Shown: one piece after another, positions 13,498-23,917 of the stretch
Numbering within the stretch: the stretch's first letter is position 1
Layout: each line of letters begins with the position of its first letter
DNA from: a virus
Reading direction: 5' to 3' (one strand)
IMG/VR virus record: IMGVR_UViG_3300043811_000163
Span: 1 to 56,533 of that record
DNA: 56,533 nt
Translations under genes and position numbers: made by a program
Notes under the pieces: model-generated
Databases searched by the model: none
What the model saw: only the letters and a program-made list of their open reading frames with translations
Told to the model about the DNA's origin: nothing

Positions 13498-14037
13498 GTG
13501 GACCTTCGCAGTGATCTCGAGCAGCGCGCGGCGGATTTCGCGACCGCGGCGCACAGTCTGATCGGGCAGACTCGCAAGTACACGGGAGAGCCATACTGGA
13601 CGCACTGCCGCGCCGTGGCCGAAATCGTACGAACCGTGCCGCACTCCGAATCCATGCTGTCGGCCGCTTGGCTTCACGACACAGTGGAAGACGTCGGGGT
13701 GCCGCTATCGTTGCTCGAGGCGAAGTTCGGGCGGGACGTGGCCGAACTCGTCGAGATGTTGACCGACGTGTCGAAGCCGAGCGATGGCAATCGCGCAGTT
13801 CGCAAGCATCTCGACCTAGCGCACACCGCGCGCGCGAGCCCGTCGGCAAAGACGATCAAGCTGGCCGATTTACTGGATAATACCCGGTCGATAGTCGACA
13901 GAGATCCGAAGTTCGCCACGGTCTACCTTCCTGAAAAATTGGCCCTGCTCGAGGTCTTGCACGAAGGCGACGCCACGCTCTGGGCCCGCGCACACAAGTT
14001 GGCCCTGGACGGCTTGGCCAAACTGAGGGAGACTTGA
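13498..14037 (+). CDS. HD-domain small alarmone hydrolase (Mesh1/SAH, RelA/SpoT hydrolase-like)
   Basis: AH...QTRKYTGEPYWTHCRAV, AAWLHDTVED, FGRDVAELVEMLTD, IKLADLLDN are the hallmark SAH motifs. Confidence 0.85.
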   Translation: MDLRSDLEQRAADFATAAHSLIGQTRKYTGEPYWTHCRAVAEIVRTVPHSESMLSAAWLHDTVEDVGVPLSLLEAKFGRDVAELVEMLTDVSKPSDGNRAVRKHLDLAHTARASPSAKTIKLADLLDNTRSIVDRDPKFATVYLPEKLALLEVLHEGDATLWARAHKLALDGLAKLRET

Positions 14038-14040
14038 ACC

Positions 14041-14478
14041 ATGGCCGAGGAAGAAACCAGATTCTACGACTTCGATAACATGCCAGCCTTCGTCAAGGGC
14101 GGCGCGTTCCGACTGGTCACGCCTGCCGGCGAGAAGCGTATCGAGGACATCGCGCGATTCCTGCAAGACGCCCAGCCTATTTCGAAAGAGCAGTTCGATC
14201 GGCTGTGCGCGGGGGGTCGAGCCGATGCGGGCGAGTCGAAGAAGGCTGGACTCGAGCCGCTGAAGGACGAGAAGGCCGATGCGGTCCCTGGCCCAGGTCT
14301 CGACACGGTTGTCATCGATGACATCATCGCAAACCCAGGCAAGTACCGAAAGCAGTGGGCCGAAGACACGCAGCATCAGTATCCTGGCAAGTACACGCAA
14401 GAGCAGCTCGACGCATCGTGGGATCAGCTGGCGCATCAGGTCGGATTGCCGACTGCGAAAGAACTCGACGCGCGTTAG
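14041..14478 (+). CDS. Hypothetical two-part acidic protein; candidate immunity protein
   Basis: Starts 3 bp after the HD gene; its stop overlaps the stop of the portal polyprotein (convergent). Confidence 0.6.
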   Translation: MAEEETRFYDFDNMPAFVKGGAFRLVTPAGEKRIEDIARFLQDAQPISKEQFDRLCAGGRADAGESKKAGLEPLKDEKADAVPGPGLDTVVIDDIIANPGKYRKQWAEDTQHQYPGKYTQEQLDASWDQLAHQVGLPTAKELDAR

Positions 14479-17400
14479 CCTTTCGGCGGCGTATAACTCA
14501 TCGTGTAGTAGCTAGGGTGGTCGAATTCCTTGTAATCCCATCCATTGGCCGCGTACTCTGGATTGAACGAGTTCTCGGATGTCGGTTTGAATCCGACCGA
14601 TTCGTAGAGCTTGTTCAAACGCGGGCCGTAGCACTCGACGTAGTTCACTCCGGCATTGCGCACGACGTGGTCGAGTAGCTTGAGCCCGGCGCCCTTCTCT
14701 CCACCCTGGTTGAATAGCGCGGTCGCCTCGACGCGACCATCTCCGTGATCGTGAACTGCAACGCCGGCTTTGCCGTCGGGCGTCGTGAACAGTTTCATGT
14801 GCGCGAGGTCGTCTTCGCTGTAGTGCGAGACATGATTCGTGAACTTTGAGCCTTCGAACGCCTTATCGAAGGCGGCCTTGAACTCGTGGGGGCTCGCGGT
14901 CTTTGGCGTGAACGAAGTCGCAGGAGACGCACTGCCGCCCGCGCCGAATCGGCCTTGCTCGTCGCGAGGATGCTTGCCCTCATCCCAATCGCCCGCATCC
15001 TGCCGAACTTTCGACCAGACACCATCGTATAGAGCTTTCGACTTGGCGGTTTCTCGATCCACGGTCGCGCGTTCGTCAGGCGTGAGGTCGCGACCTTTAG
15101 CAGCGGCTTGGATATTTCGAATCGTCTCGTACATTCGATGCCCAGGGCCATTTTTCGCAGCGAGCAGTGGTTTCAAATGGACCTGCAGTTCGCCAATGTG
15201 CCCGCTCGGATATTTGACGTTCATCATCACGTCGCGATAGCCGAGTGCTGTCGGGTTGCTCATCCGATCTTTGGGCATGCGCGCGAGCGTGATGCCTTTC
15301 TGCTTCATGGCCTCAATTACGCCGCGAACGTCCTTGACCGAGTCGACGGCCACGGTAGCGCGGACTACGTCACCAAGCTTGCTCCAATCGCCATTGTAGT
15401 CGGCATTGACCTTTTGCTCGGCACGCGCTTCGTGCTTGATGGGTCCGATCCCGACAACGGGCCCGGGATGACTGAGGTCGAGTTTGTCGTTGAACTCTTG
15501 CTCGCTCATGTTGAGGTCGCCACGAACGACTTTCGCACCGATGGCTTGGGCGACGCCTTTGCCGCGGTCGAGCAGATCCAACTGTTCTTCATGAATGGCA
15601 GGTGCCGCCTTGAAGAGTGCTTCCTTCGTGCGTTCGGGCTGCGCGAACTCTTTCGGGACGCTTGCGAGCTCGCTCTCTTTGAAGAGAGGCTCGCCGTGGA
15701 TGCTTTCGGCAGGCGATGCGCTGCTGCCTCCCGAGCCGAATCGCCCGCGCTCGTCTCGTGGCTGGTCGGCATCGAAATCGCTGCGCGTGCTGTCGCGTTT
15801 TGGTACTCCTCCGTAATCCGAGATTAGAAACTTCCCGGACTGTCCACGACCCCACTGGTTCGAATAGGCGAAGTCGGAGAGATCAAGCTTCGGAAGCTTC
15901 GAGCTTAGCTCCTTCATGGCGGTCAAGAATTGGCCAGCGGACTTCATCTTGTCGCCGGACTTGCCCCCATGAATCGCCTGATACGTAGCCGCGAACAGCC
16001 AGTCCTTGCCGTGAACATCTTGATCCCCGCCCCAAGGGTCTTTGATTGTGACCGTGTACGATTTCTTTTGGTCGGCCTTCGAGATGCCAAAGTGATCGGC
16101 CAATTGCGCCGATGTCACCGGCTCCACTTTCTCCTGCCGTACCCAAGAGTAATCTGGTGCGTGCTCTGTGATCTTGGCTAGGATATCGCTCTTGCTCGAA
16201 GCCTCTGCTTCTGCTCGATTGTCTTTCTTGGCTTTCGCGTTCTTGGCGACCTTGATGACAGTGTTCCCATCTTCATAGACTTTACGGGACGCGCCTTCGC
16301 CGAGGACTTTGAGTTTCGAAGTGTCAGGATGCTCGGAGACGGTACGGGGCTCTGTGCTACCGCCACCTTCCCCAAACTGTCCGTTGGCGGCGCGCGGCTG
16401 ATCGTCCGAGTAATCAGCTTTTGGGGTCGAGCCTTCGCTCTCACCTCCGGCGCTATCGATGAGCGCCTGCAGCTTGTCCTCGTCGAGCGAGTCGAGGTAG
16501 TCCGCTGCAGCTTCCGTCACGAGCTGCGCCAGCCATTCTTCGGGATCCGCGTCCGCATCCGAATCGTATCGGAGAGCGTCGATCGCGTCGTGAATAGCAC
16601 CACCGAGGTCTTCACCGAGATTGTATCCAGCGAACGACAATCCCTTCTCGGTCATCTTCTCGAGCGCGTGGTGCGCGATCTGGTGAGCGATCTTTTCGGA
16701 GACGAGCCTGACGGCTTCATGGCCGATCGCCTCGAGAGGCAGCAATCCGACCACGTGGCCGGCGACCACGCTGGCAGCGATCCCAATCGCGACCTTCGCG
16801 ATGGCGTGCTTCTGCTCTTTGGTCACCGGCTGTCGCGTCACGAAATTCTTCACCCCGACAATGGCGTTCTTATACTCGCCGATCTTCTCTTTGACCTCGT
16901 GCAGCGCGGCCTTTCCGATCTCTTTCGCTCCCGACCGTAGCACGGAGCCGACATGCTTCAGGCTCTCCTTGAGTTTGGTCAGGTGAATGCGCGTCAGACG
17001 AGATTGCGCGGCGTGTTCGTGTGCGCCGGATCGCTCTGGCTTGACGCGGCTGGCTGTACCACCCGATCCGCCCGCGGAGAACTTGCCGGTCTCGTCGCGC
17101 GGATGGTCTTCCTCGACGAAGTCGTCGGCGCGCGTCTCCGGCAAGATCGCTTGCACGGTCTTTCTGAAAGTGTGCGCGCCCGACAGAAGCTCTCCGCTCG
17201 ACAACCACATCACGGTGGTATTCGGTTCTGCCGCAAAGGCTTCTCCCACGAACTCGAGCGCCTCGAACACATTGACCTTGCGACCGTCGACCGGAGACAG
17301 AACCGACGGCAGCTTGCGGAGCTTGGTCGCGGTCACCCCGGTTTCTTCACGCAGTTCGCGGATCGCCGCGTGCTGCGCGGTCTCACCCTCGTCGATCATT

Positions 17401-19820
17401 CCGCCCGGGAACGCGAACTCGTGCGGGAACTCGGGACGCGTGACCGTCAGATATTTGCCTTGCTCGTTTTTCACCACGACGATCGAGGCTTGCCCCTCTC
17501 GATCATCGGCTGCGTCATTGGTCGCAAACGGATTGTGCATGGCGTGCGCGCCGGCTTTGGCCATGTGATCGTTGGCGATCTGGAAATGGCGCGCGGAGGC
17601 ATCGGAATGCCGGGCTCGATCGTCCACGGACACGCGATGCCCGGATGCCATCGCTGCGCGTCTATTGCCTTCGCGAATGTGCGCGACGCTGGCTTCCATG
17701 TGGGCGGCTGCAGCTTCCCGGTGCGCAGGCAAGGTGCCGAGCTTGTAGGCCAGTTCGGACGCTTCATTTGCAGCCTTGGTCCCGTGATCGATCCACTGCT
17801 TCGATCCAGGATCTCTCGACTGGTCCGGGTCGTGCGCGTCGAGCGCATCCTTCTGTATGGGCTCCTGCGGAGGCTTCGGCGTCAAAGCTTCGGCCTTGCC
17901 GATGTGCTTGGCGGCTTCTGCCGTGTTTCCTACGCCGAGATGGGCATTGGCTGCACGCAAATGGAGCTTGGCGAGATTGGTGGCTTTCTGCGGAGGCGTG
18001 AGCGGTCCAGGCTTCTTCGGAGCCACTGCGGGGCCCACAGCGGGCTTCGCCTTGACCTCCGGAGGGATCGGTTCCTTCTTCTTCTCGTCTCCGGCGCCCG
18101 GGGCTTGATCCGGCTGCGATTCGTCCTCGGCCGGATTGCCGGCTCCCTTGTCGGGCGGCGTTCCCTGGCCTTCCCCTGCGGGAGCCACGACCGAATGAAG
18201 CGCACTTCCGGGCAGAGGCACAGTGGGCGATTGACCTTCCGGAGTTCCACCCCCGGCGCCCCCACCCAGCGCCTGCACTTGAGCCGATGCGGAAGGATCG
18301 TTCTCGTACGGATCGAACTTGGTCTTCTCTTCGATCTCTTCTTCGATTTCCTCGACGTCGATCGACTGGTAGATGTCGCTGAGCGTGAGCGCGACTTGCT
18401 CGGCGGTCACGACCTCGTTTTGGATGTAGATCTGATCGCGCTGCGCGTTGGTGAATCGCGTCTTCGCGAGCTCGTCATCGGTCGGAGCGTAGAGCGGATG
18501 GAAATGGACCTTGAAATCGACCGGCTGTCCCTTGAAGGGAGAATCATGGGCGAGCGCGATGAGTCGGTAGAGCCGTCGGATTTTCGGAGCAAGGAAGTTG
18601 ACTTGCTCGTTGGCGATCGTGTCGTACCACTTGATTCGATCCGACTCTCCGGTCGCGTTCATTCCGGCCGGGCTCATGCCGAAGAGTTCGGTCAACGGCA
18701 TATCGAACGCCGCAGCGAGCCGCTGCATGATGCGGTCGATCGCGTCGGGGATCCCCGTCATCGGGGTCACCACGCGCGTGAAATCTTCTTCGCCGCCCGC
18801 ATCGAGCGCCACGCCGTGCATGACGCTGCGCGTGCGCTCCATTAGCTCGAGACGAGCTCGGAGCTTGCCTTCCTGGCCCGCTGTGATCGCGTTGAAGAGG
18901 CCCTTGAGTTTGAAGATGCCTTGCGACGCGTCCGAGATCAGATACGCGAGAGCATCGAAGGATCCATCGCACTGCCGGAGCACTTCGTAGCCGCGCTGCA
19001 GTACCGACCAGGACCAACCCGCGAGCGTTTGCCGCGTGATGATGTCGGGCTCGACTCCGTCGAATCGAATCAGGCGGCTCTCGTGGACGTTGAGAATCGA
19101 GGTTGCGATGTTCGCGAGCTTGGCCTTGCTCTTGGTCTTGTAGCCGAACTTGGTTCCGTCGGAGCTTCGGTACGACGAGGTCGCGACCGCGTTGGCGATG
19201 AGATACGTTCTCGGCTGCCCATACTTGGGCTGCATCGGGTCGGAGTAGTAGTCCTGAACGTACGCGAACCTTCGATCGATCTGATTGATGAAGTCGAAGC
19301 TCTTGATGTTCTTTTCGTCCAGCGGCTCCCACGGCTCTCGTCCGTCATCGATTCCCAGGATGAGCAGCGCGCCGCCGTACTGCCGGCCGAAGGTCAAGCC
19401 TTGGTGCAGCCGCAGATCGCATTGCAATCGCTCGGTCGCGTATTCGCTCAGGTCTTGAATCTTCGACTTGTCGAGCTCTCCGGCCTTTTTGCTCTCGAGC
19501 TCGTAGCCGCGCCGGAACATCTCGTTCGGACGCTTCTCCACGGCTTTCGCGGCGAGATCGTTGCCGGAGACGAGATCGGTGATCTCGACGTCGTTCAGGC
19601 GCCAAGGCGTTTCGAAGTACCCGGCTCGGGTCTTGTCCGCGATCGTGCCGAGCCCGGTCTGGTAGTTGACCCAGCGGTCTAGCTTTTGCTCGAGAGCGAA
19701 GATGCGGGTTTCCGCGTCCTCTCTAGAAGCAAGCGTCTGCGCGGCGGCTCGGCGCAGATCCGATCCGTCATTGGCCGGCGATGCCGCCGGGACTGCGGCT
19801 TCGGCCGGACCATGCTCCAT
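14475..19820 (-). CDS. Portal protein (DUF1073-like) fused to Nudix, kinase-like, RelA/SpoT and GNAT domains (polyvalent protein)
   Basis: Portal: DRWVNYQTGLG, GRQYGGA, VHESRLIRFDG, MPLTELFGMSPAGMNATGESD. Nudix box GGMIDEGETAQHAAIRELREETGV. Kinase-like LGEGASRKVY..VIKVAK..DYG. Synthetase KHEARAEQK, DVVR, GYRD, ELQVH, HRMYE. GNAT-like KGAGLKLL..LYESVGF. Confidence 0.9.
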   Translation of the reverse strand: MEHGPAEAAVPAASPANDGSDLRRAAAQTLASREDAETRIFALEQKLDRWVNYQTGLGTIADKTRAGYFETPWRLNDVEITDLVSGNDLAAKAVEKRPNEMFRRGYELESKKAGELDKSKIQDLSEYATERLQCDLRLHQGLTFGRQYGGALLILGIDDGREPWEPLDEKNIKSFDFINQIDRRFAYVQDYYSDPMQPKYGQPRTYLIANAVATSSYRSSDGTKFGYKTKSKAKLANIATSILNVHESRLIRFDGVEPDIITRQTLAGWSWSVLQRGYEVLRQCDGSFDALAYLISDASQGIFKLKGLFNAITAGQEGKLRARLELMERTRSVMHGVALDAGGEEDFTRVVTPMTGIPDAIDRIMQRLAAAFDMPLTELFGMSPAGMNATGESDRIKWYDTIANEQVNFLAPKIRRLYRLIALAHDSPFKGQPVDFKVHFHPLYAPTDDELAKTRFTNAQRDQIYIQNEVVTAEQVALTLSDIYQSIDVEEIEEEIEEKTKFDPYENDPSASAQVQALGGGAGGGTPEGQSPTVPLPGSALHSVVAPAGEGQGTPPDKGAGNPAEDESQPDQAPGAGDEKKKEPIPPEVKAKPAVGPAVAPKKPGPLTPPQKATNLAKLHLRAANAHLGVGNTAEAAKHIGKAEALTPKPPQEPIQKDALDAHDPDQSRDPGSKQWIDHGTKAANEASELAYKLGTLPAHREAAAAHMEASVAHIREGNRRAAMASGHRVSVDDRARHSDASARHFQIANDHMAKAGAHAMHNPFATNDAADDREGQASIVVVKNEQGKYLTVTRPEFPHEFAFPGGMIDEGETAQHAAIRELREETGVTATKLRKLPSVLSPVDGRKVNVFEALEFVGEAFAAEPNTTVMWLSSGELLSGAHTFRKTVQAILPETRADDFVEEDHPRDETGKFSAGGSGGTASRVKPERSGAHEHAAQSRLTRIHLTKLKESLKHVGSVLRSGAKEIGKAALHEVKEKIGEYKNAIVGVKNFVTRQPVTKEQKHAIAKVAIGIAASVVAGHVVGLLPLEAIGHEAVRLVSEKIAHQIAHHALEKMTEKGLSFAGYNLGEDLGGAIHDAIDALRYDSDADADPEEWLAQLVTEAAADYLDSLDEDKLQALIDSAGGESEGSTPKADYSDDQPRAANGQFGEGGGSTEPRTVSEHPDTSKLKVLGEGASRKVYEDGNTVIKVAKNAKAKKDNRAEAEASSKSDILAKITEHAPDYSWVRQEKVEPVTSAQLADHFGISKADQKKSYTVTIKDPWGGDQDVHGKDWLFAATYQAIHGGKSGDKMKSAGQFLTAMKELSSKLPKLDLSDFAYSNQWGRGQSGKFLISDYGGVPKRDSTRSDFDADQPRDERGRFGSGGSSASPAESIHGEPLFKESELASVPKEFAQPERTKEALFKAAPAIHEEQLDLLDRGKGVAQAIGAKVVRGDLNMSEQEFNDKLDLSHPGPVVGIGPIKHEARAEQKVNADYNGDWSKLGDVVRATVAVDSVKDVRGVIEAMKQKGITLARMPKDRMSNPTALGYRDVMMNVKYPSGHIGELQVHLKPLLAAKNGPGHRMYETIRNIQAAAKGRDLTPDERATVDRETAKSKALYDGVWSKVRQDAGDWDEGKHPRDEQGRFGAGGSASPATSFTPKTASPHEFKAAFDKAFEGSKFTNHVSHYSEDDLAHMKLFTTPDGKAGVAVHDHGDGRVEATALFNQGGEKGAGLKLLDHVVRNAGVNYVECYGPRLNKLYESVGFKPTSENSFNPEYAANGWDYKEFDHPSYYTMSYTPPKG

Positions 19821-19857: not shown

Positions 19858-22101
19858 ATGGCGGAAACTGTCGCTGACGCACCTCTCTCGGCCAAAGAGA
19901 CCGAGGACATGCCCGAGGCCCATTTCGCGGATCCGGAAGGAAAACGCTTCCCTCTATACGATCCGAAGACCAAGGCGCTCAGCGCGGAGCACGTCAACGC
20001 AGCGGGTTCCTACGCGGAAAAAATGCACAATTCTGGTGAGATCTCCGATGCGAAATACAAGGAGATCATCGCCAAGGTCAACAAGGCGAAAAAGACGCTG
20101 AAGATCGGCGATTTCGCGGACGACAAGAAAGACTACGACCGCACGCAAGCCGCCAATCCCGTCGAGGACGAGGCCGTTCAGAAATGGACGGCGGCCTCGA
20201 AAGACATCCACCGCGCCGACAATCCTCCGAGCTGGGTCGATGATGAAGCCACGTGGGAGAAGGCCAAGGAGGCGGTCGGCAAGGACTGGGACAAGTACGA
20301 CGATCCGTACGCGGTTGTCGTCTCGGTCTACAAGAACATGGGCGGATCGATCGGTGGCGGAGGCAAATCCGACCATGCCGATGCGGGTGAGCATTTTGGC
20401 GACACGGGGCTCGACCAACCCGGTTGGGAGCATGTCCGCCGCGTCGATTTGGCCTCGGGTTCAGTCGGCGAGTCCCGGACGACTCCGCAAGGCGGCATCA
20501 TCGCGCGCGCGAACCTCACTCGGACAGGGGTCTTCGACTACCGCCAGCCGGACGGCACGATCCGCCGAGAACTGAGACACCCCGACGAGGTCTTCGACAA
20601 GAAGAGCCTCGATTCCTTGGCTCATGCGCCGCTCACGATCGATCACCCCGACAAGGTCACGCCGCACAACTACAAGCGCGTCACGGTCGGCCATGTCGCG
20701 GGAACCCCGCATCGGGCAGGCAAATTCGTGCAGCAAGACGTGCTCGTGCAGGACGCGGATGCGATCGATGCGGCCAAGAAGGGCAAGCTGCAGGAGCTCT
20801 CGTGCGGCTACGAGTGCGCCATTGATCCCACGCCGGGCGACTACAACGGCGAGAAGTACGATGCGATCCAACGTCGCATTCGGTATAACCATGTAGCCGC
20901 GGGTCCGGCAGGCTGGGGAAGAGCCGGCCCCGAAGTGCGCATGCACCTCGACAGTGGTGCGGCCATCAGCTTGGCGCCCGATGCGGCTGCGTCGCCATCG
21001 GCCATGGCGCGCGAGGATGCCTCGCCTGGCAGTACGCACTCGGCGGCCGCGAATGCTCGAAGCGCAGAAGTCAAAGCCTTCGAAGATCATCTGCAGCCCA
21101 AATCGAAGACGGAACACAAGAAGGCGGCCGATGCCCATATGCAGGCTGCAGAAGCCCACGATTACGCGGCGATTCACGGCGATCCGTCGATGAAAGCCGA
21201 TCACGAAAAGGCCGCTGCCGATCATCGACAAAAGTCCGCAGATCACATTGCAGATTGCAATAAGCTCGACGAGGGTCACGCCGATCCCCGACCCGATCCA
21301 GGGTATGGGACTACGGCCGATAGTCGAGCGCCCTACGTTCGCGCTATGCCCGTCGAAACCGACGAAGAGAAGCGCCGCAAGGCCGAAGAGGAAGCGCGTG
21401 CAGAGAGGGTGCGGATCGACTCCGAACTCGCTCAGCTGCGCAGTGACAACGAACGACTCCGCGGCGAGAACACCGCGATGAAGTCGTCTAGCACGAGCGC
21501 CACGCTCGCCGCACAGCAGCAGATCGAAGCGCAGCGCATGGACGCCGCGTTCGACGAGATGTTCGCCGCGGTCGATGCAGGCACGCGCTACGTGAAGGAC
21601 TTCAACCGGTACCGCGCCGATGGCTCTCGCAAGAGTGTCTCGGACATCCGGCGCGAAGTCGTTGCGGCGCTCAAGCCGTCGATCCGGATCGACGCCAAGG
21701 AGACCGACGCGTTCATCGCGGGCGTCTTCTCCACGATCGTGCAGGAGAGGGAAGCAGCGGACCGAGGACGCGCCGCGATGGCGTTCGCGTCTTCGCCGCT
21801 CATCACGCCGGCCATGTCCCACGCCGACGCGGGTCGAAGAATGGGCATGAAGAAGCCCGATCGCGCCGCGGACCCGGACGACGAACCGGACGACGACGAG
21901 CCCGACGCCGAGACCAAGAAGGCGCAGGACAAGATGTTCCAGAAAATGAAGGACGCGTACAAGACCCGCGACAAGGGCGGGATGTCGCGCTTCTCGGCTC
22001 GGGATCGTCGCAAGGGAGACGGCCGCGCTCCCAATCCGACTCCTGCCTTCAACGGTGGGAATCAGGGCGACTTCAACGGCGGCTTCGGCGGAGGAATGTG
22101 A
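19858..22101 (+). CDS. Prohead protease (DUF2213-like) with N-terminal extra domains and a C-terminal scaffold
   Basis: TPQGGIIARANLTRTGVFDY, RHPDEVF, PLTIDHP, ELSCGY, NHVA...GRAGPEVR. Confidence 0.88.
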   Translation: MAETVADAPLSAKETEDMPEAHFADPEGKRFPLYDPKTKALSAEHVNAAGSYAEKMHNSGEISDAKYKEIIAKVNKAKKTLKIGDFADDKKDYDRTQAANPVEDEAVQKWTAASKDIHRADNPPSWVDDEATWEKAKEAVGKDWDKYDDPYAVVVSVYKNMGGSIGGGGKSDHADAGEHFGDTGLDQPGWEHVRRVDLASGSVGESRTTPQGGIIARANLTRTGVFDYRQPDGTIRRELRHPDEVFDKKSLDSLAHAPLTIDHPDKVTPHNYKRVTVGHVAGTPHRAGKFVQQDVLVQDADAIDAAKKGKLQELSCGYECAIDPTPGDYNGEKYDAIQRRIRYNHVAAGPAGWGRAGPEVRMHLDSGAAISLAPDAAASPSAMAREDASPGSTHSAAANARSAEVKAFEDHLQPKSKTEHKKAADAHMQAAEAHDYAAIHGDPSMKADHEKAAADHRQKSADHIADCNKLDEGHADPRPDPGYGTTADSRAPYVRAMPVETDEEKRRKAEEEARAERVRIDSELAQLRSDNERLRGENTAMKSSSTSATLAAQQQIEAQRMDAAFDEMFAAVDAGTRYVKDFNRYRADGSRKSVSDIRREVVAALKPSIRIDAKETDAFIAGVFSTIVQEREAADRGRAAMAFASSPLITPAMSHADAGRRMGMKKPDRAADPDDEPDDDEPDAETKKAQDKMFQKMKDAYKTRDKGGMSRFSARDRRKGDGRAPNPTPAFNGGNQGDFNGGFGGGM
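21346..22101 (+). CDS. Putative nested scaffolding protein (internal in-frame start)
   Basis: CCTACGTT-6nt-ATG inside the protease gene, in frame at Met497; charged coiled-coil product MPVETDEEKRRK... Confidence 0.6.
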   Translation: MPVETDEEKRRKAEEEARAERVRIDSELAQLRSDNERLRGENTAMKSSSTSATLAAQQQIEAQRMDAAFDEMFAAVDAGTRYVKDFNRYRADGSRKSVSDIRREVVAALKPSIRIDAKETDAFIAGVFSTIVQEREAADRGRAAMAFASSPLITPAMSHADAGRRMGMKKPDRAADPDDEPDDDEPDAETKKAQDKMFQKMKDAYKTRDKGGMSRFSARDRRKGDGRAPNPTPAFNGGNQGDFNGGFGGGM

Positions 22102-22109
22102 GCTAGGCC

Positions 22110-22736
22110 ATGCCCCAGACCAACGTCAACCTCACCCCGAACCCGGCGCAACCGGGCCAGCCGCTCTCGAACGATCGCACGAGCTACCTCGTTCGCTGCG
22201 TTCCTGCCGGAGTCGTCGTCCCGTTCGGCGTGCTCTGCGAGGTCTATGCGGCCTCCAACGGTCAGGCCCTGTGCCGTCCCGTGCAGGACGCGACCACGGG
22301 ATCCTCGTTTCTCCCGCTTCTCGGCGGCATCTCGATGCTCGACGCGTTCGCGGTGGAAATGGGATACACCACGTACTCGGTTCCGCCGAGCACGACGGGA
22401 TCGTCGTCTGCGGGCTACCCGATCGGCTTCTCGGTTCCGCTCGTGTACCGCGGCGGAATCTGGGGAGCCTGGGACGGCAATACTGGCACAGCGCTCCCGC
22501 TCACGGGCGGCATCCAGGTCTGGCACTCCAGTGACGGGTCGCACTCGCAGGGCGTGTTCACCACGCTCTCCGCGCAGACCACGCTGCACCAGGAGATCGA
22601 CGGACCCTTGCCGTACATCACGGTGTGGGATCCCTTCCTGAAGAGCGGCGCGTACACGGATTCCTTCGGGAACGTCGTGGACATTGTCGCTCTGCAAATC
22701 AACCTGCCGGGGCTTCTGACCCCAGGAGTCGTCTGA
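22110..22736 (+). CDS. Capsid decoration/minor head protein
   Basis: Located between protease and major capsid; VPFGV and YRGGIW motifs typical of this slot. Confidence 0.65.
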   Translation: MPQTNVNLTPNPAQPGQPLSNDRTSYLVRCVPAGVVVPFGVLCEVYAASNGQALCRPVQDATTGSSFLPLLGGISMLDAFAVEMGYTTYSVPPSTTGSSSAGYPIGFSVPLVYRGGIWGAWDGNTGTALPLTGGIQVWHSSDGSHSQGVFTTLSAQTTLHQEIDGPLPYITVWDPFLKSGAYTDSFGNVVDIVALQINLPGLLTPGVV

Positions 22737-23917
22737 TGGGTCGCGAACGCGGACAAGTGCAGCTCTCGGCGGACAACCCGTACGCGGGCATGGCCACCGC
22801 CAAGGTCTTCTCGGATCACAATCCGTTCGAGGGCTTGCCGAAGTACGACTCGCGCTTCGCTCGATCGTACGCGCGAAACATCCTGCAGACCAACGGCTAC
22901 TTCGCCGAGCTCGCGCAGGAAATGCGCCAGGACGGCTACCTGCGTCACGACGCCGGGCTGTCTCTCGCCTTCGCCCGTTCGCTCGAGTGGATCATCCGCA
23001 AACCGTACGAAGCGGAGTACCCGGAGCTCCGAGCCGCAGAATTCCTGCCGCTCATGACCGAGGTCCCGCCCGAAGCGGCCACCTTCACCTACCGCATGCT
23101 CGACAAGGTCGGGCAAGCCGCGGTGATCCAGGAAAACGGATCGGACGCGCCCAAGGTTTCGCTGAAGGGATCGGAGTGGCAGAGCCCGATCGTGACGATC
23201 GGGGCGAGCTACGACTACACGATCCTCGACACGCTGCGCGCCGGCAGGATGAACATCCCGCTCGAGGCGTACAACGCGGAAGCCGCACGATTCGCGTGCG
23301 AATACCTGCTCGAGAACATCGCGGCTGTGGGACTTCCGAACTCCGGCGTTCCCGGATTCACGAATGCCCCGGGCGTCTCCGGTTCCGCTCAGGTCTCCAC
23401 GGGCGGCAACTGGATTGCCCAGATCGCCTCGATCGCGCAGGCGTCCACGACCAACCCGACCCCGCCAGCGGTTGCCGTCACCCAGGCCATTGCGGGCGAC
23501 ATCAACGCCGCCATCAAGAAGGTCTTCGTGGCCACCAAGGGCACGCATCGACCGGACACCGTGCTCGTGGGCTACAACGCCTACGGCGCGCTCATGACGG
23601 CGCCGCGAAGCCCCGGATTCACGGGCGACACCATCCTCGACTACCTGGAGAACCTCTGCCAGGTCAATATCGAGTGCTGGCCGCAGCTCGACACGGCGGG
23701 CTCTGTGACCACGACCTACGCAGGCCAGAACTACAACGGCCGCGTCATGGTCTACAAGAAGGACCCGAAGCTCCTGAACCTCGTCGTCTGCCAGCCGTTC
23801 ACCCAGCTGCCTCCGCAGCCGATCCGGATGGCGTGGGAGGTTACCACCTACATGCGCACAGGTGGGGTGACAGTGCGCTACCCTCTGACAGTTACCTACA
23901 TCGATTCTGTGTCCTGA
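22736..23917 (+). CDS. Major capsid protein (DUF2184-like, HK97 fold)
   Basis: FARSLEWI..KPYEAEYPELRA, FTYRMLDKVG, VMVYKKDP, FTQLPPQ, RTGGVTVRYP; TGATG coupling at 22734-22738. Confidence 0.9.
   Translation: MGRERGQVQLSADNPYAGMATAKVFSDHNPFEGLPKYDSRFARSYARNILQTNGYFAELAQEMRQDGYLRHDAGLSLAFARSLEWIIRKPYEAEYPELRAAEFLPLMTEVPPEAATFTYRMLDKVGQAAVIQENGSDAPKVSLKGSEWQSPIVTIGASYDYTILDTLRAGRMNIPLEAYNAEAARFACEYLLENIAAVGLPNSGVPGFTNAPGVSGSAQVSTGGNWIAQIASIAQASTTNPTPPAVAVTQAIAGDINAAIKKVFVATKGTHRPDTVLVGYNAYGALMTAPRSPGFTGDTILDYLENLCQVNIECWPQLDTAGSVTTTYAGQNYNGRVMVYKKDPKLLNLVVCQPFTQLPPQPIRMAWEVTTYMRTGGVTVRYPLTVTYIDSVS

What the first reader, a model, noticed from the sequence alone, without database searches (positions are those of the whole stretch)
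14935..17856. Repeated D-x(4-8)-(H/Q)PRDxxG(R/K/Q)F tag at the start of cargo domains
Seen, five copies: KDALDAHDPDQSRDPGSKQW (degenerate, ~17793-17856), RADDFVEEDHPRDETGKF (~17079-17136), KADYSDDQPRAANGQF (~16372-16425), RSDFDADQPRDERGRF (~15737-15791) and RQDAGDWDEGKHPRDEQGRF (~14946-15009). The four clear copies are followed by a Gly/Ser spacer and a new domain; the Nudix domain has only an Asp-rich linker. Inference: cleavage after the [RK]xD would leave each effector with the same N-terminal peptide, as expected for a capsid-retention or ejection address tag, comparable in role to the T4 capsid targeting sequence. The repeats could also be recombination points for swapping cargo.
Basis: partly seen in the sequence, partly recalled or inferred. 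Interest (0 to 1): 0.85.

Follow-up and report, generated by a model that had tools for sequence, protein, structure and literature searches.

The report
Protease-exposed address tag on phage effectors
This phage's portal protein carries a chain of attack enzymes, most headed by a short peptide that also occurs in phage-type genes from many bacterial phyla, at a protein's start or just behind a predicted capsid-protease cut site, so it likely acts as a reusable label that keeps cargo in the virion and would send it into the next cell.

Summary
Confirmed and extended. Four clear copies of [FW]xExx[HQ]PRxxxG[RKQ]F, plus one decayed copy, lie between the modules of a 1781-aa portal-fused polyvalent phage protein. 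The modules are Nudix, kinase-like, Tas1-like RelA/SpoT and GNAT-like.

The tag is widespread: 895 protein clusters, up to 19 matched stretches per protein. Of 40 tag segments tested, none matched a meaningful Pfam family. It marks module borders: 14 of 834 alignments cross a tag, against 347 expected.

The residue just before the tag follows the phage's prohead protease. Lys precedes it in S78-type phages (38/45) and Asp in DUF2213 phages (41/48). After lineage collapse Lys holds (p=1.6e-4) but Asp does not (p=0.17). Edman data from phage TLS fit a cut after Asp. In 44 of 120 genome-encoded tags Met lies just before the tag.

The tag therefore likely has to be N-terminal on the mature cargo. 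Unlike the T4 targeting sequence, it would be kept. Its partner is unknown; retention and co-ejection with DNA is my best guess. DNA-level recombination is not supported.

The parts
14475..19820 (-). Portal-fused polyvalent protein, 1781 aa (P0001)
18432..19583 (-). Portal domain, PF06381 (aa 80-463)
   Evidence: Pfam E 1e-70; PHROG portal; Pam3 and E217 portals in PDB
17793..17843 (-). Tag copy 1, decayed, with upstream Asp
   Evidence: aligns with the QPR..G.W copy of P0002; not scored by the tag profile
17526..17792 (-). Ala/His-rich module of unknown family (helical by inspection)
   Evidence: no Pfam, PHROG or NCBIfam hit; shared with P0002
17142..17498 (-). Nudix hydrolase domain, untagged
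   Evidence: PF00293 E 1e-15; no tag directly upstream in 14 of 14 proteins
17079..17132 (-). Tag copy 2 with predicted cut after Asp899
16446..17048 (-). Module of unknown family, shared with other tagged proteins in other positions
   Evidence: Atlas best score 0.77, lead only
16374..16424 (-). Tag copy 3 with predicted cut after Asp1136
15795..16343 (-). Protein-kinase-like module (inferred)
   Evidence: phrog_4301 E 8e-10; Atlas 0.92-0.94 to clusters carrying Phage_T7_kinase (17% of members) and Kinase-PolyVal (80%); BLAST to a Kinase-PolyVal protein not significant
15738..15785 (-). Tag copy 4 with predicted cut after Asp1348 (or Asp1343)
15000..15698 (-). RelA/SpoT-type alarmone synthetase module, related to Tas1
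   Evidence: PF04607 E 0.004, under the cut-off; PDB 6ox6 Tas1 E 1e-7
14946..15005 (-). Tag copy 5 with predicted cut after Asp1608
14478..14903 (-). C-terminal GNAT-like module (inferred from motifs by eye; no named family hit)
   Evidence: phrog_2563, unknown function, E 1e-4; shared by many tagged proteins
19858..22101 (+). DUF2213 prohead protease/scaffold precursor, the predicted processing enzyme
   Evidence: PF09979 E 7e-40; phrog_530 head maturation protease; 11 [RKH]xD[ASGD] sites vs 6.0 expected
22736..23917 (+). Major capsid protein with a conserved R-x-D|A site at the end of its leader (Asp codon 22949-22951)
   Evidence: PF09950; Asp conserved in at least 90% of 58 rows; aligns with the N-terminal region of PDB capsids 9kmg/9kzj
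13498..14037 (+). HD-domain alarmone-hydrolase-like gene, candidate antidote to the RelA/SpoT module (inferred)
   Evidence: PF13328 E 2e-17; TIGR00691 E 7e-20

Best explanation
The repeat is a conserved 14-residue peptide that heads most cargo modules of a portal-fused polyprotein and is predicted to become each effector's new N-terminus when the phage's DUF2213 prohead protease cuts after the Asp just before it; it would then likely hold the freed effector inside the head and route it out with the DNA. Shown: the motif, its place at module borders, its spread, the match between the preceding residue and the protease class, and start codons just before the tag in many stand-alone genes. Inferred: (1) the portal brings 12 copies of the chain into the prohead; (2) the protease releases tag-first modules; (3) the tag binds something common to unrelated head types, most likely packaged DNA or the MuF/portal DNA-pilot complex; (4) effectors act in the next cell. 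Step 2 I put at about 0.8, steps 3-4 together at about 0.6.
For: Protease class vs preceding residue: K in 38/45 tags of S78/S78_2 loci vs 5/48 in DUF2213 loci; D in 41/48 vs 8/45. By contig, K 15/18 vs 4/33 and D 3/18 vs 30/33. Background 4-mer rates are K 0.17/0.28 and D 0.28/0.25. GTDB replication: K 6/7 vs 0/5, D 1/7 vs 3/5. After clustering proteases at 40%, K holds in 7/8 vs 0/11 lineages (p=1.6e-4). Within multi-tag proteins the K/D class agrees in 540/568 pairs, against a shuffle mean of 0.66 and maximum of 0.77; other proteins show their own F-, L-, R-, A- or E-type sites. TLS, whose protease matches my DUF2213 profile (E 2.5e-28), has an Edman-sequenced capsid N-terminus that maps right after K-N-D. 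The window capsid has R-H-D|A at the matching place. 44 of 120 GTDB tags have Met 1-4 residues before the aromatic, 27 of them with a Shine-Dalgarno-like site vs 9% background. Borders: 14/834 alignments cross a masked tag vs 347 expected; unmasked 61/922 vs 376; 1 of 41 Pfam domains contains a tag. Tag spacing is 140 aa at the 5th percentile. Cargo is ART, Zeta, 2H, kinase, GNAT, PBECR, lysozyme. AlphaFold models a compact core (residues 11-20 pLDDT 88, short helix plus beta-bridge). MuF is found in 37/50 tag-bearing contigs and in this genome, vs about 35% of tailed phages (PMC5576092, passages; different method).
Against: No binding partner was identified. The tag core is on average net negative (mean -1.1), which is odd for DNA binding. 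After lineage collapse the Asp signal is not significant (7/11 vs 2/8, p=0.17; 9/13 vs 2/9, p=0.08), and an acidic residue next to the aromatic is partly tag consensus. Exceptions exist: L005 (S78 with an Glu/Ser-type site) and L110, L164, L208 and L046 (DUF2213 without a clear Asp). The protein holds 19 [RKH]xD strings, several inside domains, and the [RKH]xD[ASGD] count is not raised overall (8 vs 7.0), so the string alone does not define a cut. Only 24 of 73 long portal homologues carry a tag, and Nudix is never directly tagged, so cargo can go without. The TLS authors surmise 45 residues removed, whereas their Edman sequence maps to 27 removed. MuF1 was missing in 13/50 contigs (5/18 near-complete) and in 5/5 Melainabacteria genomes with tags. 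Samples come from codon-restricted patterns and a profile built from this protein's copies.
Confidence: 0.55

Rival explanations
1. The tag works after delivery, in the newly infected cell: as a common N-terminal cap that protects, refolds or localises each released effector by binding a conserved host component.
For: The same tag is used across many host phyla and unrelated head types, which fits a universal partner. It must be N-terminal, as N-degron or chaperone signals are (general knowledge). The net negative charge fits a protein partner better than DNA.
Against: Cargo includes lysozyme and peptidase domains that should act outside the cytoplasm as well as cytoplasmic enzymes. Tags were seen in head modules or beside terminase genes in most annotated loci. 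No host mimic was found in Pfam or PDB.
Confidence: 0.2
2. The tag is a capsid-entry signal like the T4 CTS: it binds scaffold, MuF or portal during prohead assembly and has no role after that.
For: Stand-alone cargo genes start directly with the tag, with no leader, in SPP1-portal-type head modules and in Melainabacteria; something has to bring them in. MuF co-occurs in 37/50 contigs.
Against: Portal- or MuF-fused chains need no entry signal, yet nearly every module has its own tag behind its own cut site. Many stand-alone genes have a separate 15-35-aa leader before the cut. The T4 CTS is a processed propeptide.
Confidence: 0.15
3. The tag is a prime-side recognition element that speeds cleavage by assemblin-fold prohead proteases.
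For: It sits 0-4 residues after the predicted P1 in all protease classes examined.
Against: Capsid and scaffold cut sites lack it. It follows a start codon, with nothing to cut, in 44/120 GTDB tags.
Confidence: 0.07
4. The repeats are DNA recombination points for swapping cargo, and the peptide is incidental.
For: Modules are exchanged at tag borders, e.g. P0002 has the kinase directly after the post-Nudix tag; alignments rarely cross tags.
Against: Core identity is 16-21 of 27 nt, the longest exact match is 5-10 nt, and 16 of 33 identical-residue pairs use different codons. The peptide is kept in GC-rich and AT-rich genomes. Swapping may use the microhomology as a by-product.
Confidence: 0.03

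Closest known systems
Phage polyvalent proteins and portal/MuF effector fusions (Iyer et al. 2017, PMC5512222; 2022, PMC9503650; passages read)
   Same: Multi-effector chain fused to a head protein; Nudix, RelA/SpoT, kinase, GNAT, ART, 2H and PBECR cargo; proposed packaging and injection; extensive domain shuffling.
   Different: In the passages read, release is credited mainly to built-in metallopeptidases, with assemblin-like peptidases noted at some C termini. 'HPR' and 'linker' have 0 hits in the 2017 main text. No per-module retained tag or protease-matched site is described there; supplements were not seen.
T4 capsid targeting sequence of IPI/IPII/IPIII (PMC9026906, passages)
   Same: Short transferable peptide linked to prohead-protease processing of virion-delivered cargo.
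   Different: The CTS is the processed 10-aa propeptide of T4-like phages. This tag lies after the predicted cut, would be kept, repeats inside polyproteins and spans unrelated head types.
MuF polymorphic toxins (Jamet et al. 2017, PMC5576092, passages)
   Same: Toxin domains tied to the head/packaging module; tags often follow a MuF domain.
   Different: Here the carrier is the portal, with several effectors; MuF is a separate gene at G000 108235-109215. 'Motif' and 'cleav' have 0 hits in that paper's main text.
DUF5681 (PF18932)-type N-terminal R-D-x-G-R-F stretch
   Same: A similar R-D-x(1-2)-G-R-F run starts portal P0034, which carries PF18932; its link to small terminases and DNA binding is recalled.
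   Different: It lacks the upstream [FW]xExx[HQ]P half, is followed by GxSGNP/GRP, and is not scored by the tag profile; 0 of 40 tags hit PF18932.

Membership tests
Phage polyvalent proteins | Two or more unrelated effector domains in one polypeptide | tested here: met
   Nudix, RelA/SpoT-like, kinase-like and GNAT-like modules
Phage polyvalent proteins | Encoded with or fused to virion head components | tested here: met
   Portal fusion; protease, cement and capsid genes adjacent
Phage polyvalent proteins | Domain shuffling among relatives | tested here: met
Phage polyvalent proteins | Packaged and injected | not testable with these tools
   no virion proteome for this phage
T4-type capsid targeting sequence | N-terminal propeptide processed off by the prohead protease | tested here: not met
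   the tag lies downstream of the predicted P1 or right after Met vs PMC9026906; the cut itself is predicted
T4-type capsid targeting sequence | Sufficient to package a foreign protein | not testable with these tools
   needs a reporter fusion
DUF2213 prohead protease substrate | Asp at P1, often Lys/Arg at P3, matching an experimentally cut site | tested here: met
   all four clear copies; TLS K-N-D|A; one experimental site only
DUF2213 prohead protease substrate | Asp preference independent of lineage | tested here: inconclusive
   7/11 vs 2/8 lineages, p=0.17
DUF5681 / small-terminase N-terminal hook | Match to PF18932 and a GNP/GRP continuation | tested here: not met
Any catalogued Pfam/NCBIfam family for the tag | Profile match | tested here: not met
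   40 tags vs Pfam, only 2 unrelated hits at E 0.14-0.23; 3 window tags vs NCBIfam, none; PHROG hits only as part of larger head-protein families

The most novel reading that the evidence does not exclude
Tailed phages of many bacterial phyla share one portable N-terminal retention-and-ejection tag, recognised by a universal partner such as packaged DNA. Each phage exposes it with its own prohead protease or a start codon, so any domain placed behind it becomes injected cargo. Melainabacteria appear to have taken it over for chromosomal lysozyme, peptidase and papain-fold toxin genes loaded into a domesticated phage-like particle.
Probability: 0.4. Interest if true: 0.92.

Novelty: new variant of a known kind. 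Interest (0 to 1): 0.8.

Why it matters
How proteins cut free inside a prohead stay there and leave with the DNA is an open question outside T4-like and jumbo phages. A 14-residue tag with cultured carriers (Xanthomonas PhiXhv-5, Pseudomonas Orimi01, Faecalibacterium FP_Brigit) makes it directly testable. The tag also works as a search handle for virion-delivered effectors and anti-defence proteins: it gives module borders for unknown domains. The residue before it would predict the cut specificity of unstudied prohead proteases.

Tried and rejected
- Co-folding the tag with MuF, portal and capsid (earlier with the protease): the tool's queue stayed full, nothing was folded.
- Single-sequence AlphaFold of the last three modules: pLDDT 40, not used.
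- Foldseek with the tag model: no match at E<=0.001.
- PDB profile searches: only weak hits, 9rku_Af at E 0.57-1.6 and cyclin-Y at E 0.24.
- T4-type protease PF03420: 0 of 49 contigs, and no control rang, so uninformative.
- The search for related loci: one locus with the portal; the tag alignment was not usable.
- tblastn of the whole protein against cultured phages: the 40 rows listed of 1175 records were portal-only matches.
- Atlas search of the module after copy 2: best score 0.77, no family.
- BLAST of the kinase module to P0099: not significant.
- D[AS] or K[AS] enrichment in protease tails: modest only, 1.28x and 1.46x.
- An Ala-type site for the third protease class: not shown by my count (4/16), because most of those tags are near-N-terminal.
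- MuF as universal partner: weakened by 0/5 in Melainabacteria; PF06152 and other MuF families were not searched.
- Literature: nine searches listed nothing describing the tag. (HPRD/HPR terms) was swamped by unrelated papers, 30 of 958 listed, so absence from print is only weakly shown.

Full report
Observation. The window is the first half of a 113,473-bp phage record with direct terminal repeats. The finding lies in one 1781-aa ORF, 14475-19820 (-). Four strict copies of [HQ]PRxxxG[RKQ]F start at aa 906, 1141, 1353 and 1617. They are the only ones in the genome, and 20,000 shuffles gave at most two looser matches. The fifth copy is decayed: a profile of 548 tags from other proteins misses it, but it aligns with a QPR..G.W copy in homologue P0002.

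Anatomy. The protein is a PF06381 portal (aa 80-463), then a Pro-rich linker, copy 1, an unknown module, Nudix, copy 2, a second unknown module, copy 3, a kinase-like module, copy 4, a RelA/SpoT module related to Tas1 (E 1e-7), copy 5 and a GNAT-like module (by motif only). The divergent neighbours are a DUF2213 prohead protease, a cement protein and the capsid protein. An HD hydrolase nearby may neutralise the alarmone synthetase (inference). Such portal-effector fusions are a known class (PMC5512222 and PMC9503650, passages).

Spread. A profile of the four copies matched 895 of 1.84 billion cluster representatives at E<=0.001, with up to 19 stretches in one protein; this favours multi-copy proteins. 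Two codon-restricted scans of IMG/VR gave 129 and 122 loci, with about 460 and 140 stretches estimated. These loci, with the window and three cultured phages, held 258 distinct tags with consensus [FW]-x-E-x-x-H-P-R-D-x-x-G-[KRQ]-F and a Gly/Ser tail; H, P, R, D, G and F are partly fixed by the search patterns. A GTDB scan gave 108 loci from Proteobacteria, Actinobacteria, Firmicutes, Melainabacteria, Planctomycetes, Bacteroidetes, Spirochaetes and others; 97 held a tag by profile. Three cultured phages carry it in a portal extension. Of 73 long portal homologues, 24 have it. Forty tags matched no meaningful Pfam family, and 3 window tags no NCBIfam family.

It marks module borders. Among 99 proteins with three or more tags, 14 of 834 local alignments crossed a masked tag, against 347 for random placement. 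Masking favours breaks, so I repeated it unmasked: 61 of 922 vs 376. One of 41 Pfam domains in 30 scanned proteins contained a tag. Tag spacing has a median of 264 aa and a 5th percentile of 140. P0002 has the kinase directly behind the post-Nudix tag, where this protein has an extra tagged module. The copies are conserved as peptide, not DNA: at most 10 identical bases in a row.

The residue before the tag follows the protease. 144 of 258 tags had no protease class and 5 had minor classes; they were left out. Lys lay within four residues before the aromatic in 38/45 S78-type tags and 5/48 DUF2213 tags; Asp in 8/45 and 41/48. By contig the p values were 7e-7 and 2e-7. GTDB loci repeated this on small numbers: K 6/7 vs 0/5, D 1/7 vs 3/5. 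After collapsing proteases at 40% identity, Lys held (7/8 vs 0/11, p=1.6e-4) and Asp did not reach significance (2/8 vs 7/11, p=0.17). That measure ignores an Asp directly next to the aromatic, as in copies 3 and 4 here. Exceptions include L005, L046, L110, L164 and L208. Within multi-tag proteins the K/D class agreed in 540 of 568 pairs vs 0.66 shuffled; duplication of whole units may explain part of this, although the upstream residues otherwise differ. Of 99 proteins, 93 had one dominant residue in at least 75% of their tags: K 55, A 11, L 9, R 7, D 6, F 3, E 2. That HK97-type proteases cut after Lys is recalled, not checked.

Independent anchor for Asp. The TLS capsid protein's Edman sequence (PMC11447400, passages) maps to residue 28, right after K-N-D, and the TLS protease matches my DUF2213 profile. 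The authors surmise 45 residues removed, which does not fit that mapping. The window's capsid protein has R-H-D|A at the matching place, with Asp in at least 90% of 58 rows. In E217 the first 65 capsid residues and the portal beyond residue 528 of 765 were not modelled (PMC10329688, passages), which fits trimming without proving it. All four clear copies here have [RK]xD within three residues of the aromatic. With 19 such strings in 1781 aa, chance is about 1e-5 by my arithmetic. Several of the 19 lie inside domains, so exposure must also matter.

The tag has to be N-terminal. In 44 of 120 GTDB tags a Met lies 1-4 residues before the aromatic; 27 of these have a Shine-Dalgarno-like site, vs 9% before any ATG. 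In the viral loci the count is 22 of 230, near background. The GTDB cases are enriched in Melainabacteria, so they are not 44 independent events. Met-start tags occur in head modules with an SPP1-type portal, Terminase_3 or Phage_min_cap2 (L261, L274, L299, L314). SPP1 itself has no prohead protease (recalled), and I did not show that these loci lack one. Other stand-alone genes have a 15-35-aa leader, then a site, then the tag.

Mechanism. The portal brings the chain into the prohead; the protease cuts after Asp; each module emerges tag-first. The tag would be kept, unlike the T4 CTS, which is a processed propeptide (PMC9026906, passages), and portal-fused modules need no entry signal. Its job should therefore come after maturation. 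AlphaFold gives a small ordered core with no structural match. Unrelated capsid, portal and protease types share the tag, so the partner should be near-universal. DNA is my first guess, helped by a similar R-D-x-G-R-F run in a DUF5681-type N-terminus but hurt by the net negative charge. MuF is second: 37/50 contigs, 0/5 Melainabacteria. A host-side role and an entry-signal role remain live.

Novelty. The carrier protein is a new member of a known class. The retained tag and its protease-matched grammar were not found in Pfam or NCBIfam, in nine literature searches (listings only, one swamped by noise), or in the passages read. I did not see the supplements of PMC5512222, which hold many domain alignments and might include it. 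Two earlier notes of this scan mention similar peptides in another protein; they are unchecked leads, not support. Verdict: real, widespread and probably undescribed; processing is well supported by comparison, function is untested. Interest 0.8.

Noticed in passing
L292, L295, L303, L318, L322, L281; G100-G104: Melainabacteria/Gastranaerophilales carry 1-5 profile matches per genome, as Met-start tagged genes among housekeeping genes, with lysozyme, peptidase or papain-fold toxin cargo. All 5 genomes have a similar Terminase_3 gene and no MuF1; in G101 three tags lie beside it. Possibly a domesticated phage-like particle.
   Followed up: partly
window 19858-22101; L006, L046, L069, L155, L164, L165: The window's DUF2213 precursor has about 200 extra N-terminal residues with Asp sites but no tag; in other phages the protease precursor itself carries tags.
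   Followed up: partly
window 14475-19820 vs 19858-23917; G000 108235-109215: Unusual head-gene layout: the portal is transcribed away from protease and capsid, and MuF lies about 19 kb away round the circle, with its own R-E-D|A candidate site.
   Followed up: partly
window 13498-14037 and 14041-14478: An HD alarmone-hydrolase-like gene and a 145-aa unknown ORF converge on the portal gene's end; possible antidotes to its effectors.
   Followed up: no
window 16410-16565 (-): An acidic, probably helical segment between R-Y-D|S (aa 1086) and copy 3 could be a discarded scaffold-binding leader.
   Followed up: no
L003, L013, L014, L018, L022, L047, L051, L053, L056, L072, L078, L079: A phage group with giant genes beginning with a conserved short leader ending WGTxEELL before the tag, right after a phrog_21470/18402-type protease gene.
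   Followed up: no
PDB 9rku chain Af, residues 83-98: A 'putative tail biosynthetic protein' has a tag-like QPRD..GRF stretch (E 0.57-1.6); whether it is resolved in the map was not checked.
   Followed up: no
L256 5088-6062 (phage TLS capsid gene): The published Edman sequence maps to 27 residues removed, not the 45 the authors surmise.
   Followed up: yes
P0113, P0168: Proteins of 7334 and 5313 aa with 18 and 16 tags, mostly behind Phe-type sites; a rich source of unknown effector modules.
   Followed up: no
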